A stretch of DNA of 63,510 nucleotides, counting the filler, from Collodictyon triciliatum (Eukaryota), in the NCBI GenBank assembly GCA_043381765.1. It is 57 parts of 57 records of this genome, joined end to end, with 100 filler letters (N's around TTAATTAATTAA, not from the genome) between each part and the next. Parts side by side here need not be neighbours in the genome. Positions count along the whole stretch, not along the records: positions 11,199 to 12,217 come from JBHJMP010012687.1; 56 more parts are not named here. One strand, written 5' to 3'. Shown here one piece after another: positions 5,263-60,860 of the stretch (positions are counted from its first letter, which is position 1; each line of letters starts with the position of its first letter). A program made the position numbers and the translations under genes. The notes under the pieces were generated by a model, which saw nothing but the letters and a program-made list of their open reading frames with translations, searched no databases and was not told the origin of the DNA.

Positions 5263-5895
5263 CTACAGCCAGATTACGATTGGGTTATTGAAATTCTGCC
5301 TGTGTCCACCAGGGCGCACCGTTAGACTGTAAAGGGATGATAATGATAATGATAATGATAATGATAATGATAATGATAATGATAATGATAATGATTAAGA
5401 TTAAGATAAAGATAAAGATAAAGATAAAGATAAAGATAAAGATAAAGATAAAGATAAAGATAAAGATAAAGATAAAGATAAAGATAAAGATAAAGATAAA
5501 NNNNNNNNNNNNNNNNNNNNNNNNNNNNNNNNNNNNNNNNNNNNTTAATTAATTAANNNNNNNNNNNNNNNNNNNNNNNNNNNNNNNNNNNNNNNNNNNN
5601 TTTTTCTTTTCTTTTTTCTTTTCTTTTTTCTTTTCTTTTTTCTTTTCTTTTTTCTTTTCTTTTTTCTTTTCTTTTTTCTTTTCTTTTTTCTTTTTTCTTT
5701 TTTGAGCCCCAGTTAACAATATAATATCAACACCACGCTCAAGTCTTTTATGAATAAATAAAATGATAAATTATTGATTTTAAATATTTAGAATGAAGAA
5801 ATGGAAGGAGAGGGCAATAAAAGGCATGAACACCAAACAGCCTATAAAATAGTAAATGAGATCATATATTGATAGTCCCCCTCCCTATCCAACAA

Positions 5896-5967
5896 GCGGG
5901 TGTAGCTCAGTGGTAGAGCGTTCGACTGCAGATCGAATGGTCGCCGGTTCAATTCCGGTCGCTCGCT
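5896..5967 (+). tRNA. tRNA-Cys(GCA)
   Basis: Full cloverleaf: acceptor GCGGGTG/CGCTCGC, D arm GCTC/GAGC, anticodon stem TTCGA/TCGAA with loop CTGCAGA, T loop TTCAATT, discriminator U. Followed by a TTTTT Pol III terminator. Confidence 0.97.
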
Positions 5968-8900
5968 TTTTGGCCGGCGAGATGCTCATACGTTTCTCTC
6001 GGAATTATTCTCACTTGTGGTGTTTGGACAAAATTGCTTCACAGCGAGGAAAGTGTCACAGGGAGGAGTTCATATTGCCAAAGACAGGGAGCGCGCTGAG
6101 TCGCATAAGACACACTTTTTACTACCTCCAAAGAACAACCAAAAGAGGGGTAACCAGGGGCGTTCGAATACACGAACATAGCGGCGCATTCATAACTGGT
6201 ATGGACACCCAGAAGCGGTGGCTTTGCACCCGACAAGAATCGAATGGCTTTCCATCCCAGCAGTAATTCTTTCCAATTTTGTATTTATTTGTGGTTAACT
6301 TTTGAATCGTACGATTTCTCTGTATATTCCATGCAGCAAAGTTCTCGAGGCAAGCAGAAAGAGAGACAAACCTATGACTTAATTTACAGATAATCAACAA
6401 AGTCATAGGGTAAACGAATTTTTGCATTTAGGACTTTTTTTTCGTCTTTTTCTATATATATATTTTTAATTTACACCACAATCATTGTCCTAAATACAAT
6501 AATAGGAGCATGAAACGTATGAGAAAATATTATCCAGTTATGTATAGTTTCATCGAAAGTGGTCACATTTTCTTTCTTTTTTTTCCTTGCCAAACCACCC
6601 AGGGAAGAAAATTTTTTCATNNNNNNNNNNNNNNNNNNNNNNNNNNNNNNNNNNNNNNNNNNNNTTAATTAATTAANNNNNNNNNNNNNNNNNNNNNNNN
6701 NNNNNNNNNNNNNNNNNNNNAGCTTGGAATAGATATGATATCCAGCATAGCTCCCCATGCCGTTACTTTTTGCCGCGAAATGAAAGAAAGATTCATTGAT
6801 TATGTCTTAACATGTACAATTTTTTATGAATTATACATAATCTGCCGCGAAAATATGTCAATTCTTAGTCGATTCTTTTTTTTTTTTAGTAACGGCCTTT
6901 GAACAGAAGGAATATTACAACTGCACATAATAAAATGCGTACCTATGGAAAGTATATTATCATGAACATTATCATTAACATTATCATTAACATAGCAAAA
7001 AAACAAAAGCACCAGAACATCGCATTGTATTAGTTGAAGAGAAAAGCACATTGTGCGCACCAAATGGCCCACATATCGACAATATCCAATCATATATCTG
7101 ATGGAAAGGGAATGCAGTCCGCGATCTAAAAAACCATTAAATCAAAGCACTTTGATACATTCAACTGCTGATTGTTGCTCTTGAAAGCACTGCAGGCACA
7201 TATCGCTATTGGAATTCAAAGTCTAGTTTGCTAACTCGTTAACTTCTTTTCCTTCTTTTTTTCATTAGTTTATTGATCAAACACATCGCCAAAGATGAAA
7301 ACCGATTCTTTTTAATCTATGTTTTTTTGAAAAGGCTGATATTTTTGATGCGGGGTTAATTGACGCGCACCACCTTTCGAGTATCTTTACTGACCCATTA
7401 TAATGGCTTACAAAACCCAGCACAAAGAAAAGTTTTATGCTATAATATTACTTTTTTTTACTTTTCAAAAGGTATATGTGATATTGTTGGACATTCTGAA
7501 AAAATAATAACTTATTAGATCACTGCTAGAAATCTTTTTTTTTGTAAGTTACTGATCTCGCACTATCGCTAAGGTCAATGTGGCTCATTGATTTTTTCCT
7601 TTCATATTTTTTTTTAAAGTAAGGGTTTTATTATGATTCTACAGCCCGCCCTAGTTGTTGCGCCTTGGTTGAAAGCACGAACGCGTTTTGGATTCATATG
7701 CAGGTCGGTGTAGTATAGAAACAAAATTCATGACTCATCTNNNNNNNNNNNNNNNNNNNNNNNNNNNNNNNNNNNNNNNNNNNNTTAATTAATTAANNNN
7801 NNNNNNNNNNNNNNNNNNNNNNNNNNNNNNNNNNNNNNNNTGTTGTGAAGTTTAACATATCTTCGAAAGTTAGGATCGTGTAGAGAAAGCTATGTCGCGA
7901 ATAAATATATTTAGGGATTAAAGGAGCAGCAAATTTGATAAGTATTTATAAATATAATTGACGTTACCATTCGAACACCAAAGTTTTCTTCTCCATTTGA
8001 AGACGATATGCAAAGGGAGTGTGCATTTGAATTCATATCTGACAGCTTCCCATTCTATTTATAATTAACAATAATCGTTTCCTCTCCGAAACACTTAAGT
8101 TTGTATTTTTTTTTTAATAATTATTCTTTTCGTATGACCGACTAAATACTTCAATGCGGATTTCGTTGATGTGTGTCAAAAGAAGTCCAGTAGATAATCC
8201 ATCATATTGGGGCATATATTGAGGGGGATTTGATTGTATTGCATGGTTGTCATCAAAATCACGACACCTATTTTATTCAAATTCATACATATCTAAAAAA
8301 TGTACAATAATAATAATAATTTGGAAAATGAGAAAAAGGGAATCTAATGCATTTCTGTAAAAAGCAGACACGAGAGAGGTACTATAATGGATTACATACC
8401 ACGACTCTTTGTGGGCTATAATCTCCTTTTCCAAGATGTCGATATTAGACTTCGCCTTGTAGGAGCAGTCGAATATGTATATAAAAATGAAGTCAATTTA
8501 CAACAGGAACAAAAAAAATGTCAATTAAGTTTTGTATAGTAAGAGTCCTGAAAAATAGATGACAGTACAAGCAAACAAACATACCTTTTCTATCTCGGAC
8601 AGAATAGCAGCTTTAGATTTTTCGTATCTTTCAATCTCTTGCTTCATTTGCATCTTAATATTTTCAAGCTCCGGACAGGATGTTCTTTTTATACACGGAG
8701 CATAAATCGGACGAATTTCTCTTGGCTTTGACTACACATTTTTCTCATATGAGTGGATAAAAAAGAATAAAAGAATAAAAGAATAAAAGAATAAAAGAAT
8801 AAAAGAATAAAAGAATAAAAGAATAAAAGAATAAAAGAATAAAAGAATAAAAGAATAAAANNNNNNNNNNNNNNNNNNNNNNNNNNNNNNNNNNNNNNNN

Positions 8901-9979: not shown

Positions 9980-11006
9980 NNNNNNNNNNNNNNNNNNNNN
10001 NNNNNNNNNNNNNNNNNNNNNNNTTAATTAATTAANNNNNNNNNNNNNNNNNNNNNNNNNNNNNNNNNNNNNNNNNNNNTATATCCGTGTTTTATGTCCG
10101 TGTTTTATGTCCGTGTTTTATGTCCGTGTTTTATGTCCGTGTTTTATGTCCGTGTTTTATGTCCGTGTTTTATGTCCGTGTTAAATGTGTTTGAAAAAGG
10201 ACAAGGTCGACAAATTGGATGGAAAGGAAAAGGAATCAACGAGAAGAGAGTATCTTTGACGCATGGATAAGCAGAATGTTGGCACAACCTTTTCTCGAAG
10301 GGTTAGTTTAGTGTTGGCGATGTTGTGGTGTGTTCATCGTTTGCCCATCACGAAAATGTCGTGCGCGATGTGATGCTAGAAAAAAAAAATTCGAATAAAA
10401 GCCTACATCACCCTGCATGATGGCGGAAGAGCGAGTCAAGTTAAGAAAAAATCCACCACAGCCCATGTATCCGGCAATGTCCATTAATTCATGGCTCTTT
10501 GGTGCAACGCGATATAATCGCTTGTGGAACCGCATAGTTATATTCGACAAAGTACCTCTCCTCGCAAAAACCTTTGGCCAGGAAGCGAGCCGGGGGATAC
10601 TACTTCAACTGTCCCGATGAAATACTCCTGCTATCGCCGCAATATGAGACATATCCAAAACATGCAGATATAACGCCGGCCGCGGGCTCTTTCGCCTGTG
10701 CCTTTTGTTGGGCAAATCTATATATGGCATCATAAACTTTTAAATAACCCAATGAACTCTTCCATAATTTATACATTTGTGGAAAATATGAAATATATTA
10801 ATTTATAATCCATAATGATTCCTTTACAACCTGAAAAGCACTAAAATAGCAATATATATATATATTAGAAGATTCTACATTGATCGAACAAGCTGGGTTT
10901 TCCTTCCTGTTCGCCGCAGAACAAATAAATGCTGCACAGTTGGATACTTTGCACATGAGAAAAAAAAAAGAAAAAAAAGAAAAAAAAGAAAAAAAAGAAA
11001 AAAAAG

Positions 11007-11098
<92 letters not shown>

Positions 11099-11198: not shown

Positions 11199-11468
11199 TT
11201 CCAAGGAAGCACAAGCACACAAGTTCTGCACAAGTCGTCTTCTCTGAAAAATCCGCCGGCCTTTGCGGGATATTTAATGTCGTCTTGTCGAAATCCTCAC
11301 TTTTTTTTTATTCACAAAGTACTTTCTGATCTCCGTGTGCACAACCCCACCATCCTGACTCGAGTAATTCTGTCTGTGTGATTGTCAAGTCCACTCAAAA
11401 AAAAATAAATGATGTGTATTGTATTGACACCCAGCCAGTCCACATATACACAGACGGAATCTGTCCAG
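11199..11468 (+). promoter_or_regulatory. Conserved upstream block of the variable LRR family (promoter/5' UTR, possibly with a UTR intron)
   Basis: Near-identical to 13042-13321(-) and 59905-60177(-). Indels in its T-run argue against coding. Function is inferred from position only. Confidence 0.55.
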
Positions 11469-12217
11469 ATGTCTGACCACCTCACACCTGCCCAAGTGGA
11501 TGCACTGATGGAAGAAGTCCGGAAAATCTCTGGTGATGGCTATGGGAGATCATTTGCTGATATTGCCACTCTGAAAGGATCCACATCTCTGAGTCTCTAT
11601 GGCAGGAAACTGTCATCTGTGCCGCCTGGTGTTTTCTTGTTGACTGGTCTGAAAGTATTGGGTCTTGGTAGAAATCTGTTGTCATCGCTACCTGCACAAA
11701 TATCGTGTTTGACTGGTCTCAGTGTTCTTTCTGTTCGTGGCAATCAGCTGTCATCACTACCTGCACAAATATCGTGTTTGACTGGTCTCACAGCATTGAG
11801 TCTTGAAGGCAATCAGTTGTCATCACTACCTGCACAAATATCGTGTTTGACTGGTCTCAGTATACTTGGTGTTCATGTAAATCCGGTATGTTTTTATTCA
11901 TATATTATATTACTATTATGTTTAAAAGAAAATGACTGACAACGATACACGCAGATGGAGGAGCTTCCAGCACAGATCACAGCGCTCACAAATCTGAAAG
12001 AACTCTGTATAAATCTTGGAAACCCACAAACCATAAAGAGAGCCCCTCGTGGCATCTCAAATCTCCCCTGCTGGAGTAACACAGGACACGGTGACTACAA
12101 ACACATCCGCGCTCTGCAGCTCTACGACCCCGTAAGCACACATCCACCCCCAACCCCCACATACACAACACAGGACACAACTAACATAACCCTAGGTCGA
12201 TACCGCAGCTGAAGAAG
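11469..12217 (+). CDS. Variable LRR family protein, copy A (exons 11469-11885, 11955-12131, 12196->12217; 3' truncated)
   Basis: 23-aa LRRs LxxLxLxxNxLSSLPAQISCLTG. GT-AG introns with ACTGAC/ACTAAC branch points join NP|MEELP and YDP|VDTAAEE in frame. Confidence 0.9.
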
Positions 12218-12439
12218 NNNNNNNNNNNNNNNNNNNNNNNNNNNNNNNNNNNNNNNNNNNNTTAATTAATTAANNNNNNNNNNNNNNNNNNNNNNNNNNN
12301 NNNNNNNNNNNNNNNNNTCAGGAGATCTGCGTAGTTGCCGCGGGCTAGGCGGCTGGTTGGGGCTGCGTAGATGCCGGACTGGATGTTGGGACTGGCTGCA
12401 ACCTGTGTAAGTGGAGTGTTTGGGTGTCAGGTAAGTCTG

Positions 12440-32574: not shown

Positions 32575-33290
32575 AAGCTGGAGATAATCACGAACCCCGC
32601 AAGTCCTTCCAAATCACCGCTCTCTAATGCTTAGCATCACCAATAGGGAGCTATGAATAGGCACACGCGCGGCAAAAGCTGGCAAAGTCTCCCAACAATG
32701 CACACTTTGCAGCAACGGTGATGAATCCATTGAGCACAGATTTGTGCAATGTCCCTTCGCTCAAAACCTGCGCGAAACAGCCGGTGAGATTCTCCGACTG
32801 ACACTCAAGACGACTGCAGCTGTTTGTTCAATCCAGGCGATATTTGGGCCTCGTCAACAGCTGCGTCCAGATGCAAAAACATTCTGGGCAGTGACGGGAG
32901 GCCATTTGCTCTGGATTATGTGGATAGCATGCATATACTCACGCAAAGCAAGACTCAACAACCAGCCACCCATTCCTGATAACAGGCTGGATGACATCAT
33001 ACAAATATATTTTCTCAACCGTTTCCTTCCCCACCTGCACGTTCTCTACTGCTCGACCCCGTGAGAAGAGATATGTGGAAAGAAGCAGAGAAAGATTTTA
33101 AACCTCGCCTTGTCTCTCTCATGCAAGCACAAGACCTAGGCTACACGCCAAACTGCAGGATGCAACTCCTGATTACCGACTACTTCTCTGCCACTCCGCC
33201 ACCAAGTAGCGTCCATGCAAACGATGGCTAGCGAGCCAAGGTCGATACATTCACCGTTCTTGAGCTATTGAAAGATACAATAAAAAAAAA
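32575..33290 (+). mobile_element. L1/Tx1-like LINE 3' part: zinc finger, ORF2 C-terminus, 3' UTR, poly(A); decayed (copy 4)
   Basis: EL*IG...QCTLCSNGDESIEHRFVQC, then a frameshift, then MWKEAEKDFKPRLVSLMQAQDLGYTPNCRMQLLITDYFSATPPPSSVHANDG*, AATAAA and an A-run. This copy links the short repeat to the LINE. Confidence 0.88.
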
Positions 33291-34658: not shown

Positions 34659-35674
34659 TGATTGTCTCTTGTTGCTTGGTTTTATCAGCTTCCAATGTCT
34701 TGATTGTCTCTTGCTGCTTGGTTTTATCAGCTTCTAATGTCTTGATTGTATCTTGCTGTTTGGTTTTATCAGCTTCCAATGTGTTGACCGTTTCTTGTTG
34801 CTTGGTTTTATCAGCTTCTAATGTCTTGATTGTCTCTTGTTGCTTGGTTTTATCAGCCTCCAACGTCTTGATTGTCTCTTGCTGTTTGGTTTTATCAGCT
34901 TCTAATGTCTTGATTGTATCTTGCTGTTTGGTTTTATCAGCCTCCAACGTCTTGATTGTCTCTTGCTGTTTGGTTTTATCAGCTTCTAATGCCTTGATTG
35001 TTTCTTGTTGCTTGGTTTTATCAGCTTCCAATGTGTTGACCGTTTCTTGTTGCTTGGTTTTATCAGCTTCTAATGTCTTGATTGTCTCTTGTTGCTTGGT
35101 TTTATCAGCTTCTAACGTCTTGACCGTCTCTTGTTGCTTGGTTTTATCAGCCTCTAATGTCTTGATTGTCTCTTGTTGCTTGGTTTTATCAGCTTCTAAT
35201 GTCTTGATTATTTCTTGTTGCTTGGTTTTATCAGCTTCTAGTGTCTTGATTGTCTCTTGTTGCTTGGTTTTATCAGCTTCTAATGTCTTGATTGTCTCTT
35301 GCTGCTTGGTTTTATCAGCCTCCAACGTCTTGATTATCTCTTGTTGCTTGGTTTTATCAGCTTCTAGTGTCTTGATTGTTTCTTGCTGTTTGGTTTTATC
35401 AGCTTCTAATGTCTTGATTGTTTCTTGCTGCTTGGTTTTATCAGCCTCCAACGTCTTGATTGTCTCTTGCTGTTTGGTTTTATCAGCTTCTAACGTCTTG
35501 ATTGTCTCTTGCTGTTTGGTTTTATCAGCTTCTAATGCCTTGATTGTTTCTTGCTGTTTGGTTTTATCAGCTTCTAATGTCTTGATTGTCTCTTGCTGCT
35601 TGGTTTTATCAGCTTCTAATGTCTTGATTGTATCTTGCTGTTTGGTTTTATCAGCTTCCAATGTGTTGACCGTT
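34659..35674 (-). CDS. 42-bp tandem repeat encoding a 14-aa coiled-coil unit (TIKTLEADKTKQQE) x ~24
   Basis: Uninterrupted frame. Most unit differences are synonymous in this frame. Period equals two heptads. Confidence 0.8.
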
Positions 35675-58055: not shown

Positions 58056-59066
58056 TGAAAGAGCAATTTTGAATATGAGAAAAACAACATACCAGTAATC
58101 GAACGTGCGAATCATGTATTGTAACATAACAAAATTAGACATTAAAAATATTTGGGCGCATAAAAAAAATATTGCCACAACTGTTAAGGATATGCCAATA
58201 TAAAGAAAGACAATTCCCAAATCTATCCCGGAGGCTAGGAAAGGTGAAGCAAATATAGAAAGGCAAAAAATTGTGGAACTAAATAAGAAGTATGGCTTAG
58301 ATGTAAAAAGTTTCGAGATGACATGATATCGTCCTTTGATGTACTTGTGATATATTGTTTGATGTGTTTCATATTCAATTGCCTTGTCCTCCATAATTCC
58401 GATTACTAAGGCACATTTCTTATCCATGATTTCTGCACCAACAATAATTTCATGATGACTAAATATTTGTTGTTCTCCTGGGTCATCTTTTCGATTGTTT
58501 TGTGTATGTGAGGTACTTGGGATACTAACTTGGGGCTTTATTCGATGCGTTGAAATAGGTGCGATGGAATCCATAATGAGGCTCGCTGGTGATTTTTTGA
58601 TACTTTTGTTGTTTTGTGGAGATGACTTACTATCTTTTTGCAAATCATTTGCTCCTATGTCAATATTTCCCTCTTGAATCTCGTAAAATTCCGATAAAAA
58701 TACCACTGTCGAAGCTCTTTTCAAAATGAAGTGATTGTAAAATATGCGAAGAAGGTAAATCATCACAGTACTTATGTTGTCTATTGCTTGTAATCGCAAA
58801 TCTACAATTTCCAACCCAGTTGCAGAGTAGTTTATTTTCTCTATCTCAAAATCAATTAATTTAAAGCACAGGCAACATATTACTGGCACATAAAAGAGAA
58901 GCCCTATAAAGGAGGCTGCTTTCACTAATTTTGTCTCTTTTGCTGCGTGTGCGTCAAATAGTAGCAATATCACGCATGTACTTGTAAAAGAATGGAGCAT
59001 ACTGCAGAGAATCTCGGAGGTAAATCCCCAAAGAAATAGCATACAAACGTGCATCGAGATGATATT
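58056..59066 (-). CDS. Hypothetical multi-pass membrane protein, internal fragment
   Basis: >330-aa open frame spanning the scaffold, with two hydrophobic clusters separated by a polar loop. Confidence 0.65.
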
Positions 59067-59166: not shown

Positions 59167-59904
59167 AGCTCTTTTAGCTTCTTCAGCTTTTTTAGCTTCT
59201 TCAGCTCTTTTAGCTTCTTCAGCTTTTCTAGCTTCTTCAGCTTTTCTGGCTTCTTCAGCTTTTTTAGCCTCTTCAGCTTTTTTAGCCTCTTCAGCTTTTT
59301 TAGCTTCAGCTGCGGTATCGACCTAGGGTTATGTTAGTTGTGTCCTGTGTTGTGTATGTGGGGTTTGGGGGTGGATGTGTGCTTACGGGGTCGTAGAGCT
59401 GCAGAGCGCGGATGTGTTTATAGTCTGCGTTCTCTGTGTTATTCCAGCAGGGGAGATTTGAGATGCCACGCGGGGCTCTCTTTATGTTTACTTTACCACT
59501 CCCATCTACCATGTCAAGTTTCTGTAGATTTGTGAGCGCTGTGATCTGTGCTGGAAGCTCCTCCATCTGCGTGTATCGTTGTCAGTCATTTTTCTTTTAA
59601 ACATAAATAGTAATATAATATATGAATAAAAACATACCGGATTGTTATAAACATAAAGTTCTATGAGACCAGTCAAACACGATATTTGTACAGGTAGTGA
59701 TGACAGCTTATTGCCACCAAGACTTAATCCTTTCAGACCAGTCAACAGAAAAACACCAGGCGGCACAGATATCAGATTCTTGCCATAGAGATTCAGATAT
59801 GTGGAGCTTTTCAGAGTGGCAATATCAGCAATTGGATAGAAAGAGAGTTTCCGGACTTCTTCCAAAAGCGCTTCCACTTGGGCAGGTGTGAGATAGTCGG
59901 ACAT
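59167..59904 (-). CDS. Variable LRR family protein, copy C (exons 59904-59638, 59566-59387, 59322->59167; 3' truncated)
   Basis: Same structure as copies A and B. Exon 3 reads VDTAAEAKKAEEAKKAEEAKKAEEARKAEE..., an 18-bp repeat. Confidence 0.9.
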
Positions 59905-60860
59905 CTGGACAGATTCCGTCTGTATATATGGATAGACTGACTGGGTGTCAATACAATACACATCATTTATTTGTTTTATGAGTGGACTTCACAATCACAC
60001 AGGACAGATTAACTCGAGTCAGGATGGTAGGGTTGTGCACACGGAGATCTGAAAGTACTTTGTGAACAAGAAAAAGAAGCAAGGATTTCGACAAGACGAC
60101 ATTAAATATCCCGCAAAGGCCGGCGAATTTTTCCGAGAAGACGACTTGTGCAGAACTTGTGTGCTTGTGCTTCCTTGNNNNNNNNNNNNNNNNNNNNNNN
60201 NNNNNNNNNNNNNNNNNNNNNTTAATTAATTAANNNNNNNNNNNNNNNNNNNNNNNNNNNNNNNNNNNNNNNNNNNNTTCTCATTCTTTCTCATTCTTTC
60301 TCATTCTTTCTCATTCTTTCTCATTCTTTCTCATTCTTTCTCATTCTTTCTCATTCTTTCTCATTCTTTCTCATTCACTCACTCTCTTTCTCATTCTCTC
60401 ACTCTCTCATTCTTTCTCATTCTTTCTCATTCTTTCTCATTCTTTCTCTTTCTTTCCCTTTCTTTCCCTTTCTTTCTCTTTCTTTCCCATTCTTTCTCTT
60501 TCTCTTTCTTTTTCTTTTTCTTTTTCTTTTTCTTTCTTTCTTTCTCTTTCTTTTTCTTTCTTTCTTTCTCTTTCTTTTTCTTTCTCATTCTTTCTCATTT
60601 TTCTTTATTGCGATATTTTCTTGTTCTCCTGAGAAACTCAATCAAACACTATTTCTTACAAGTAACAGATACTGCCAGTTCATTCCATCGAGCCCAGCTC
60701 GCATTTCCTTGCACACCCTCATTGTTTTTAGTCACACAGCATCTACTTCCTCACCAGCCTTCTATTACTTTCGTTCACACACACATCACTCTGCTCATAG
60801 TAGTACCCTACCCACCGATCAGCCATAAGCTCACCGCTTTTCCCACCCGGACCCGCCACG

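What the first reader, a model, noticed from the sequence alone, without database searches (positions are those of the whole stretch)
11199..12217. Multicopy LRR gene family with hypervariable binding face in an invariant frame (VLR-like repertoire candidate)
Seen: three independent scaffolds (11199-12217 +, 12318-13336 -, 59167-60177 -) carry the same three-exon LRR gene. Upstream DNA, both introns and the scaffold codons (TCATCACTACCTGCACAAATATCGTGTTTGACTGGTCT) are almost identical. The x positions of LxxLxLxxNx differ in every module: KVLGLGRNL, SVLSVRGNQ, TALSLEGNQ, SILGVHVNP; KRLVLHYNN, TWLTVFSNP; KGLSLGGNK, IELYVYNNP. Intron 1 of A and C differs by only two 1-nt indels, while the 30 coding nt just before it differ at 10 positions, all in five x codons that each change amino acid. 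Known: these positions form the concave ligand-binding sheet, and the same pattern occurs in lamprey VLRs and plant NLR LRRs. Inference: three hits among ~57 size-sorted scaffolds suggest a large repertoire of recognition proteins for pathogens, prey or self in a microbial eukaryote.
Basis: partly seen in the sequence, partly recalled or inferred. Interest (0 to 1): 0.88.

Follow-up and report, generated by a model that had tools for sequence, protein, structure and literature searches.

The report
Hypervariable LRR binder family, protist
Three short scaffolds of a freshwater microbial eukaryote carry copies of one small leucine-rich-repeat gene whose DNA is almost identical except at the codons of the predicted binding face, the hallmark of a fast-evolving inherited recognition family known from plants, fungi and brown algae.

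Summary
Three of the 57 scaffolds carry the same intron-bearing LRR gene. Upstream DNA, introns and framework codons are 90-100% identical. The six exposed codons per 23-residue module differ at 47% of bases, and nearly all those changes alter the amino acid: pN 0.59 against pS 0.15 in disjoint module pairs, versus 0.008 against 0.10 in the framework. Copy A has two more 69-nt modules than B and C. Contigs of other public runs show intron 1 spliced out, seven further binding-face variants and up to 15 distinct contigs over one site, so the copies are not assembly artefacts. The gene ends in a cap motif with no Pfam or PDB match. Its closest long relatives are Diphylleia rotans transcripts that join the same LRR+cap unit to Roc-COR, kinase or RING domains. 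There is no signal peptide, and every copy is a complete germline reading frame. Best reading: an inherited cytosolic binder family diversified by positive selection and repeat-number change, probably for non-self recognition. Nothing supports VLR-type somatic assembly. Genome-wide copy number, 3' ends and targets remain unknown.

The parts
11199..11468 (+). Copy A: conserved upstream region or 5' UTR
   Evidence: 90-94% identical between copies. An RNA-library contig of run X7 matches 11199-11297 with no difference and runs on 123 nt further upstream (table 8).
11469..11885 (+). Copy A exon 1: N-terminal helix, first LRR (11583-11651), three near-identical 69-nt modules (11652-11720, 11721-11789, 11790-11858) and the first 27 nt of the last module
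   Evidence: Gene model. Pfam LRR_8 E 5.8e-13. TRF finds period 69, 2.7 copies. AlphaFold model has pLDDT 90.8 with one strand per module.
11886..11954 (+). Copy A intron 1 (69 nt, GT..AG), placed inside the last LRR
   Evidence: One X2 contig removes exactly this stretch. Seven further X1/X2 contigs join a variant module directly to 11954/11955 (tables 5 and 5c).
11955..12131 (+). Copy A exon 2: rest of the last LRR plus the family-specific cap (RAPxGIxxLPCW ... LQLYDP)
   Evidence: No Pfam family. No PDB chain is matched beyond profile position 39. Relatives come from unnamed NCBI contigs and Diphylleia rotans.
12132..12217 (+). Copy A putative intron 2 (12132-12195) and start of exon 3; 3' end missing
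   Evidence: GT..AG with an ACTAAC-like branch site. No spliced contig was seen for it. A contig of X1 covers 12114-12214 unspliced, so this model is uncertain.
12318..13336 (-). Copy B: exon 1 13041-12778 (two fewer modules, starts MGNTLS), intron 1 12777-12708, exon 2 12707-12531, long intron 12530-12403, distal exon 12402-12318
   Evidence: The join of exon 2 to the distal exon is seen in an X7 RNA-library contig (loose end at 12133).
59167..60177 (-). Copy C: exon 1 59904-59638, intron 1 59637-59567, exon 2 59566-59387, intron 2 59386-59323, exon 3 59322-59167 (an 18-nt repeat that reads AEEAKK x ~8 under the spliced model)
   Evidence: TRF finds period 18, 7.8 copies at 59167-59307.

Best explanation
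These are germline members of a lineage-specific family of small cytosolic LRR binding proteins. They are paralogs, and some may be alleles. Each protein has a short N-terminal helix, three to five 23-residue LRRs and a novel cap, followed by variable C-terminal exons. All copies descend from a recent common sequence, so introns, upstream DNA, framework codons and synonymous sites are nearly identical. Diversity arises in two ordinary ways. First, amino-acid-changing point substitutions accumulate and are kept by positive selection at six exposed positions per module (positions 1, 2, 4, 6, 7 and 9 of xxLxLxxNx), which lie on and beside the beta strand of the concave face. Second, whole 69-nt modules are gained and lost by unequal recombination between the near-identical repeats. 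Shown here: the sequence pattern, the non-synonymous excess, the difference in module number, splicing and presence in RNA libraries, and the LRR fold prediction. Inferred: the family is a recognition repertoire, most likely an innate-immunity-like set of sensors or adaptors for intracellular non-self such as viruses, bacteria or prey-derived molecules. The inference rests on the Diphylleia relatives, which wire the same LRR+cap unit to Roc-COR/STAND, kinase and RING signalling domains.
For: Copies and gene model.
Non-coding identity is 90-100%.
Nei-Gojobori counts over 16 module pairs: x codons dN 1.04, dS 0.20; framework dN 0.017, dS 0.12.
Four disjoint module pairs: x codons pN 0.586 against pS 0.152, Fisher p 0.0015; framework pN 0.008 against pS 0.103.
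Inside x codons, codon positions 1, 2 and 3 differ at 52%, 60% and 29%.
A has a 69-nt period in 2.7 copies, and two more modules than B and C.
The AlphaFold model (30-sequence alignment, pLDDT 90.8) puts strands at residues 63-65, 86-88, 109-111 and 132-134, which are module positions 2-4. Its fold matches Leptospira LIC LRR proteins, SHOC2 and RSU1.
Independent runs: 113 (X1) and 169 (X2) contigs lie on the 1019 nt at 85% or better. Eight joints lack intron 1. Seven new last-module variants all keep xxLxVxxN. Up to 15 contigs cover one site.
Relatives: 33 of the 150 listed hits of the exon-2 profile reach the cap. Of 13 long hits looked up, 11 are Diphylleia rotans transcripts, carrying Roc, COR-A, DUF4062, AAA_16, Pkinase or RING domains.
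The N-termini are hydrophilic with no signal peptide (by eye).
Against: Only three partial genes are in hand, and module pairs are few and related, so the dN/dS figures are rough and no site model was run.
Third positions of x codons differ more than framework third positions (29% against 6%). Some older divergence, or exchange of short tracts, may therefore contribute.
No genome was held, so paralogs cannot be told from alleles and loci cannot be counted.
The C-terminal part of the proteins is unknown. No Roc, kinase or other effector domain lies on these scaffolds, so the signalling role is by analogy only.
X1 and X2 are only guessed to be RNA, and may be different species.
No close exon-1 relative exists in the 5.8-billion-protein collection, and none was found in JGI metagenome contigs.
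Confidence: 0.62

Rival explanations
1. Few loci, many alleles. The three scaffolds and the variants in other runs are haplotypes of one or two extremely polymorphic loci, for example an allorecognition or mating-type-like system, sampled from a non-clonal or polyploid source. They are not a large paralog repertoire.
For: No genomic context exists for any copy, because the scaffolds end about 270 nt upstream and inside the 3' repeats. Fungal het-type NLR alleles show the same combination of repeat-number polymorphism and hypervariable positions (PMC4986451, passages read). A and C share an identical intron 1 apart from 2 indels.
Against: B has a different N-terminus and a different distal exon from A and C, so at least two gene types exist. 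Up to 15 distinct contigs cover one site in a single small run. Seven short exon-2-like ORFs at 46-64% identity come from separate unnamed NCBI contigs.
Confidence: 0.15
2. An old family homogenised by gene conversion. The copies are ancient, and conversion keeps framework and non-coding DNA alike. The x codons simply escaped conversion under relaxed constraint, with no positive selection.
For: Concerted evolution of repeats within and between family members is documented for fungal NLR repeats (PMC4986451). Third positions of x codons are more diverged than framework third positions (29% against 6%).
Against: Variable and conserved bases interleave at single-codon scale: the L and N codons and many third positions inside the 27-nt variable segment are conserved. 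Conversion tracts cannot produce that. pN is about 4 times pS inside the x codons themselves, whereas relaxed constraint gives a ratio near 1. pS in x codons (0.15) is close to pS in the framework (0.10).
Confidence: 0.1
3. Programmed diversification: somatic or templated change of the x codons or modules. Candidates are VLR-like copy-choice assembly, or mutagenesis targeted at the first two codon positions as in diversity-generating retroelements.
For: The invariant 42-nt frames between variable segments would be ideal short-homology anchors. Two x codons are NNT in 8 of 8 and 7 of 8 modules, which resembles the AAY-to-NNY outcome of retroelement mutagenesis (recalled knowledge). Zambounis et al. 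raised somatic recombination for brown-algal LRR-ROCO genes (PMC3341825, abstract).
Against: All three copies are complete, intron-bearing germline frames. No incomplete receptor gene, cassette bank, template repeat or linked reverse transcriptase is seen; the two zf-RVT fragments lie on unrelated scaffolds. Variants in other runs form graded series (TRLDIFLNP, TRLDVESNP, TRLDVDVNP; translated by hand, table 5c), as expected of ordinary descent. Positive selection on a young family explains the NNT pattern equally well.
Confidence: 0.05
4. Assembly artefact: the variants are chimeric or collapsed contigs of one repeat-rich gene.
For: All three scaffolds are about 1 kb and end in or near repeats, which is typical of a broken short-read assembly.
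Against: Reading frames, splice sites and the LxxLxLxxN periodicity are intact in all three copies. Independent public runs hold further in-frame variants, both spliced and unspliced.
Confidence: 0.03

Closest known systems
Highly internally conserved (HIC) repeat domains of fungal NLR-like STAND proteins (Podospora HNWD/NWD; Dyrka et al. 2014, PMC4986451, passages read)
   Same: Repeats are near-identical at the DNA level. Repeat number is polymorphic. Positive diversifying selection acts on the codons of the ligand-binding surface. Evolution is concerted within and between family members.
   Different: Fungal cases use WD, ANK or TPR repeats, and that paper found no LRR motifs. Here the repeat is a 23-residue LRR, the array is short (2-4 internal modules), and no NOD domain is seen on the scaffolds.
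Brown-alga (Ectocarpus) LRR-ROCO candidate immune receptors (Zambounis et al. 2012, PMC3341825, abstract and outline seen; PMC11378527, search listing only)
   Same: A protist-grade lineage with cytosolic LRR domains under diversifying selection, variable LRR number and rapid birth and death. Relatives of the present family in Diphylleia are LRR-Roc-COR proteins.
   Different: In Ectocarpus each LRR is its own exon and variation comes from exon shuffling. Here all internal modules lie in one exon and differ by point substitutions and module indels. The cap motif is different.
Lamprey and hagfish variable lymphocyte receptors
   Same: An invariant LRR frame with variation confined to the concave face, and a variable module number. 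VLR and repebody chains are among the Foldseek matches, from rank 9 (repebody) and rank 27 (VLR).
   Different: VLRs are secreted or anchored, have cysteine-rich LRRNT and LRRCT caps, and are assembled somatically from cassettes into an incomplete germline gene (recalled knowledge). Here the germline genes are complete, with no signal peptide, no such caps and no cassettes.
Ras-group / SHOC2 / RSU1 / Leptospira LIC type 23-residue LRR proteins
   Same: These are the best sequence and fold matches of the LRR part. They are cytosolic LRR adaptors with the LxxLPxxIxxL convex motif.
   Different: Those are single-copy conserved adaptors or bacterial proteins, without hypervariable paralogs and without the RAPxGIxxLPCW cap.
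Plant NLR and receptor-like protein LRR domains
   Same: Diversifying selection on the xxLxLxx solvent-exposed residues, and multigene families. The Atlas look-alikes of the cap exon are plant resistance-protein LRR fragments (a weak lead: recognition 2003, 146 or fewer shared features).
   Different: Repeat class and architecture differ. No NB-ARC domain is seen here.

Membership tests
Leucine-rich repeat superfamily (Pfam LRR_8 / LRR_4) | Tandem LxxLxLxxN-type repeats that score above the Pfam cut-off | tested here: met
   LRR_8 scores 48.8 bits against a cut-off of 27, and LRR_4 38.1 against 27.
Leucine-rich repeat superfamily (Pfam LRR_8 / LRR_4) | Curved solenoid with one beta strand per repeat on the concave side | tested here: met
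   The AlphaFold model has pLDDT 90.8 with five evenly spaced strands. Foldseek matches LRR structures at E down to 7e-8.
Lamprey VLR system | Incomplete germline gene completed somatically from flanking LRR cassettes | tested here: not met
   All three copies are complete frames from ATG through the LRRs to the cap, with introns. Somatic change itself could not be tested.
Lamprey VLR system | Signal peptide and cysteine-rich LRRNT/LRRCT caps | tested here: not met
   N-termini are hydrophilic. Pfam finds no LRRNT or LRRCT. The cap has no PDB relative beyond profile position 39.
Lamprey VLR system | Variation concentrated on concave-face residues of an invariant frame | tested here: met
HIC repeats of fungal NLR-like proteins | Over 85% identity between repeats across at least 100 residues (criterion in PMC4986451) | tested here: not met
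   DNA identity of the 69-nt units is 86%. However, only 3 internal modules (69 residues) exist in A, and 6 of 23 residues per module vary.
HIC repeats of fungal NLR-like proteins | Repeat-number polymorphism plus positive selection at binding-surface codons | tested here: met
   One internal module (B, C) against three (A). pN is well above pS at x codons.
HIC repeats of fungal NLR-like proteins | Repeats attached to a NOD (NACHT / NB-ARC) STAND domain | not testable with these tools
   The scaffolds end before the 3' end of the genes. The Diphylleia relatives carry Roc-COR and AAA_16.
ROCO proteins | Roc GTPase and COR domains after the LRRs | tested here: inconclusive
   Neither is on the scaffolds. 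The visible third exons encode an AEEAKK repeat (C) or an unrelated peptide (B). Relatives P0123, P0150 and P0145 have Roc; P0123 and P0150 also have COR-A.
Diversity-generating retroelement targets | Template repeat plus reverse transcriptase, with variation only at template adenines | tested here: inconclusive
   No template copy or linked reverse transcriptase occurs in the window. The rest of the genome was not available.

The most novel reading that the evidence does not exclude
The near-perfect DNA frame is maintained because it is used. In this reading, a deep-branching unicellular predator (a relative of Diphylleia, in the CRuMs group) actively reshuffles or mutates the binding-face segments of a cytosolic LRR family. 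It would do so by short-homology copy-choice between modules or by targeted mutagenesis, so that cells or clones differ in their repertoire. That would be an anticipatory recognition system outside animals.
Probability: 0.05. Interest if true: 0.92.

Novelty: new member of a known kind. Interest (0 to 1): 0.55.

Why it matters
Fast-evolving repeat receptors with a fixed frame and a hypervariable face are the common design of plant, animal and fungal non-self recognition. Finding the design in such a clean form in a free-living heterotroph that appears related to Diphylleia would extend it to one of the least-studied deep eukaryotic lineages. Here it uses LRRs, a new cap domain and relatives wired to Roc-COR, kinase and RING modules. 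The result offers a compact natural scaffold (23-residue modules with 6 variable positions) and a testable candidate for how a single-celled predator tells food, parasites and self apart. My searches of the held library found no paper that describes an LRR family in Collodictyon or Diphylleia. One search returned one unrelated paper, and none of the 10 papers listed mentions Diphylleia.

Tried and rejected
- No whole genome is held for this window, so copies could not be counted.
- Exon 2 searched against longer proteins found nothing.
- Exon 1 against longer and near-length proteins gave only generic LRR and ROCO hits at 56% identity or less.
- JGI metagenome contigs gave no relative by protein and none by a 28-mer. 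IMG/VR and GTDB genome contigs gave 0 exact matches.
Depth comes from contigs and is not a copy number.
- Parts of the stretch without cover in X3 and X7 are not evidence of anything.
- A single-sequence AlphaFold run was poor (pLDDT 54) and was replaced by the alignment-based run.
- The Atlas hits for the cap exon are a weak lead only.
- The Atlas result for a fatty-acid-synthase-like fragment did not settle the taxon.
- Earlier scan notes hold nothing on this genome.
- PAML site models were not run: the program is not installed and only three genes are in hand.
- The first literature search was uninformative.
- Supplementary files of the papers were not seen.

Full report
**What the window is.** The 63,510 bases are 57 separate scaffolds of 1020 down to 1011 nt. 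They are sorted by size and joined by runs of N around TTAATTAATTAA. GC content is 28-45% per 2-kb step. Many scaffolds are microsatellites, minisatellites or poly(A)-rich stretches. No whole genome is held, and earlier scan notes have nothing on this genome.

- Scaffolds A (11199-12217, +), B (12318-13336, -) and C (59167-60177, -) align end to end.
- BLASTN and TBLASTN find no fourth copy in the window.
- All three copies share one gene model:
  - an ATG about 270 nt into the scaffold;
  - exon 1 of 417, 264 and 267 nt in A, B and C;
  - a 69-71-nt GT..AG intron placed inside the last LRR;
  - exon 2 of 177-180 nt;
  - a candidate 64-nt second intron.
- Exon 1 of A matches Pfam LRR_8 (E 5.8e-13). 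Exon 2 matches no Pfam family.
So is the count of 10 differences in five codons before an intron 1 that differs between A and C only by two indels.

**Where the differences lie.**
- Non-coding DNA is 90-94% (upstream), 96-100% (intron 1) and 95-98% (intron 2) identical.
- I cut the coding sequence into 23-codon modules and compared like with like: first modules, internal modules and last modules, 16 pairs in all.
- The six x codons (module positions 1, 2, 4, 6, 7, 9) differ at 136 of 288 bases. The L/L/N core differs at 19 of 144, and the 14 framework codons at 30 of 672.
- Nei-Gojobori estimates are dN 1.04 and dS 0.20 for x codons, against dN 0.017 and dS 0.12 for the framework.
- Those pairs are not independent, so I repeated the count on four disjoint pairs. 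There, x codons give pN 0.586 against pS 0.152 (Fisher p 0.0015). The framework gives pN 0.008 against pS 0.103.
- Inside x codons, the first, second and third positions differ at 52%, 60% and 29%. Two x codons are NNT in 8 of 8 and 7 of 8 modules.
- Variable and conserved bases therefore interleave at the scale of single codons, and synonymous divergence in the variable segment is close to that of the frame.
- This argues for recent common descent plus retention of amino-acid changes. It argues against an old family whose frame was homogenised by conversion tracts.
- The higher third-position divergence in x codons (29% against 6%) is a caveat that I cannot resolve with three genes.
- A also carries two more 69-nt modules than B and C (TRF period 69, 2.7 copies, 86% matches). 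That is the expected product of unequal recombination between near-identical repeats.

**Structure.**
- A single-sequence AlphaFold run was poor (pLDDT 54).
- With a 30-sequence alignment (the three window exons plus the 27 near-length LRR hits; alignment), the model reaches pLDDT 90.8.
- It shows one short strand per module at residues 40-42, 63-65, 86-88, 109-111 and 132-134. These are module positions 2-4. A helix follows over the invariant AQISC segment.
- By established LRR geometry, the strand and its flanks form the concave face. That is where all six variable positions sit.
- The best fold and sequence matches are Leptospira LIC LRR proteins, SHOC2, RSU1 and LRRD1. Repebody and VLR chains rank lower.

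**Independent support from other runs.**
- No public run holds more than 0.19 of the sampled words. The holders are freshwater and lake metagenomes plus two small runs of coded organisms.
- I laid four runs at 85% likeness: 113 (X1), 169 (X2), 8 (X3) and 5 (X7) contigs lie on the 1019 nt of A.
- One X2 contig removes intron 1 exactly.
- Seven further contigs join an LRR frame, through 12-27 unmatched letters, directly to the first base of exon 2. The skipped lengths minus the inserted letters equal 69, 138 or 207 nt, which is the intron alone or the intron plus one or two modules (my arithmetic on tables 5 and 5c).
- Translated by hand, the inserted letters give seven new last-module faces: TRLDIFLNP, SSLYVFDNL, EVLFVFNNP, SVLSVCANP, IGLYVSDNP, TRLDVESNP and TRLDVDVNP. 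All keep the L and V/I core and the N.
- Up to 15 distinct X1 contigs cover a single site (11609).
- A 449-nt contig of DNA run X3 spans intron 1, exon 2 and intron 2.
- The family is therefore real, is present in RNA-type libraries in spliced form, and has at least some tens of sequence variants in nature.
- The runs may be of related species. X1 and X2 are only guessed to be RNA. Contig depth is not a copy number.

**The 3' end is unresolved.**
- In C, splicing of the 64-nt intron opens a frame of about eight AEEAKK units (18-nt period, 7.8 copies) that runs to the scaffold end. This looks like a charged single-helix spacer (recalled knowledge).
- In B the same model hits a stop. However, an X7 RNA-library contig joins the end of exon 2 to a distal exon that matches B at 12402, which implies a 128-nt intron.
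- An X1 contig covers 12114-12214 unspliced. Read through, A and C would end 27 codons after exon 2.
- No effector domain lies on the scaffolds.
- B begins MGNTLS, a myristoylation-like start (recalled motif). A and C begin MSD. None has a signal peptide.

**Relatives.**
- A profile of the three exon-2 peptides was searched against 1.84 billion representatives. It found 363 proteins at E of 1e-3 or better.
- Most of these match only the LRR half. By my count, 33 of the 150 listed reach profile position 40 or beyond, which is the cap (RAPxGIxxLPCW ... LxLYD).
- I looked up 20 hits:
  - all 7 short ones (68-121 residues) come from unnamed NCBI contigs of 523-734 nt;
  - of the 13 long ones, 11 are Diphylleia rotans transcripts in EukProt;
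  - one is a plant NLR and one is a JGI contig.
- The short ones are 46-64% identical to A and mostly begin at the same exon border. Five of the seven read on through a V just after the YD/YE, as the window's own copies do when read into the GT of the intron.
They place one to about eight LRR+cap units ahead of Roc and COR-A (with DUF4062 or AAA_16), a protein kinase, a RING finger, or a weak NYN-like match. SAM-like tails are my reading of the sequences, not a Pfam result.
- The cap has no PDB relative beyond profile position 39. Its Atlas look-alikes are plant resistance-protein LRR fragments, which is a weak lead.
- The source organism is thus probably a relative of Diphylleia, a freshwater collodictyonid. 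This is an inference from one fast-evolving domain.
- The absence of near-identical EukProt hits for exon 1 suggests the source is not that same strain.

**Interpretation.**
- The best-supported reading is an inherited family of small cytosolic LRR binders. It is kept diverse by positive selection on six exposed residues per module and by module gain and loss.
- A recognition or innate-immunity-like role is inferred from the pattern of evolution and from the signalling domains attached to the same unit in Diphylleia. It is not shown.
- The closest known analogues are:
  - the highly internally conserved repeats of fungal NLR-like proteins, which share the evolutionary mode but use WD, ANK or TPR repeats and never LRRs (PMC4986451, passages read);
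  - the brown-algal LRR-ROCO genes, which share LRRs and diversifying selection but have one exon per repeat and exon shuffling (PMC3341825, abstract).
- Earlier notes of this scan on other genomes describe the same frame-and-face pattern in phage, giant-virus and bacterial LRR arrays. I treat those as leads only.
- The VLR comparison holds for the pattern of variation. It fails on the defining features I could test: complete germline genes, no signal peptide, and no LRRNT or LRRCT.
- Rivals are many alleles of a few loci (0.15), an old family homogenised by conversion (0.10), programmed diversification (0.05) and assembly artefact (0.03).

**Verdict.** This is a real and unusually clean example of a known evolutionary design, in a little-studied protist lineage and with a new cap domain. 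It is a new member of a known kind. Interest is moderate to fairly high, limited by three truncated genes, an unknown copy number and an unknown function.

Noticed in passing
window 1-63510: The window is not one locus. It is 57 unplaced scaffolds (1020 to 1011 nt, size-sorted) joined by N runs around TTAATTAATTAA, so neighbourhood in the window says nothing about linkage.
   Followed up: yes
window 45918-46325 (+): An open frame that resembles the region around the N-terminal ketoacyl-synthase domain of fungal-type fatty acid synthase. Atlas score is 0.96 to clusters from Basidiomycota and Zoopagomycota; Pfam finds nothing.
   Followed up: partly
window 16321-16689 (+) and 32657-33061 (+): Two fragments with the zf-RVT zinc-binding region of non-LTR retrotransposon reverse transcriptases. 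They lie on scaffolds unrelated to the LRR genes.
   Followed up: partly
window 24962-25630 (+): A 223-residue open frame with bacterial-type cadherin-like / Big_9 domains. It could be a contaminant or a lineage-specific adhesion protein.
   Followed up: no
window 58056-59066 (-) and 40460-41251 (+): Long AT-rich open frames that look like multi-pass membrane proteins. No Pfam match.
   Followed up: no
window 5895-5968 (+): A tRNA-Cys (GCA) gene, the only Rfam or ARAGORN hit in the window.
   Followed up: no
window 14554-15572, 34659-35674, 10980-11098: Whole scaffolds made of simple repeats: a two-codon unit (reads SQSQ...), a minisatellite of about 57 nt, and a long poly(A)/(A8G) run. This fits a repeat-rich genome that broke up in assembly.
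   Followed up: no
window 11199-11297 (+): The far-upstream conserved part of copy A is matched without any difference by an RNA-library contig (X7) that continues 123 nt further upstream. The 5' UTR may be long, or there may be an upstream exon.
   Followed up: no
window 13041-13024 (-): Copy B starts MGNTLS, an N-myristoylation-like motif (recalled consensus), whereas A and C start MSD. The first ~10 codons are as diverged as the x codons although the flanks are conserved.
   Followed up: no
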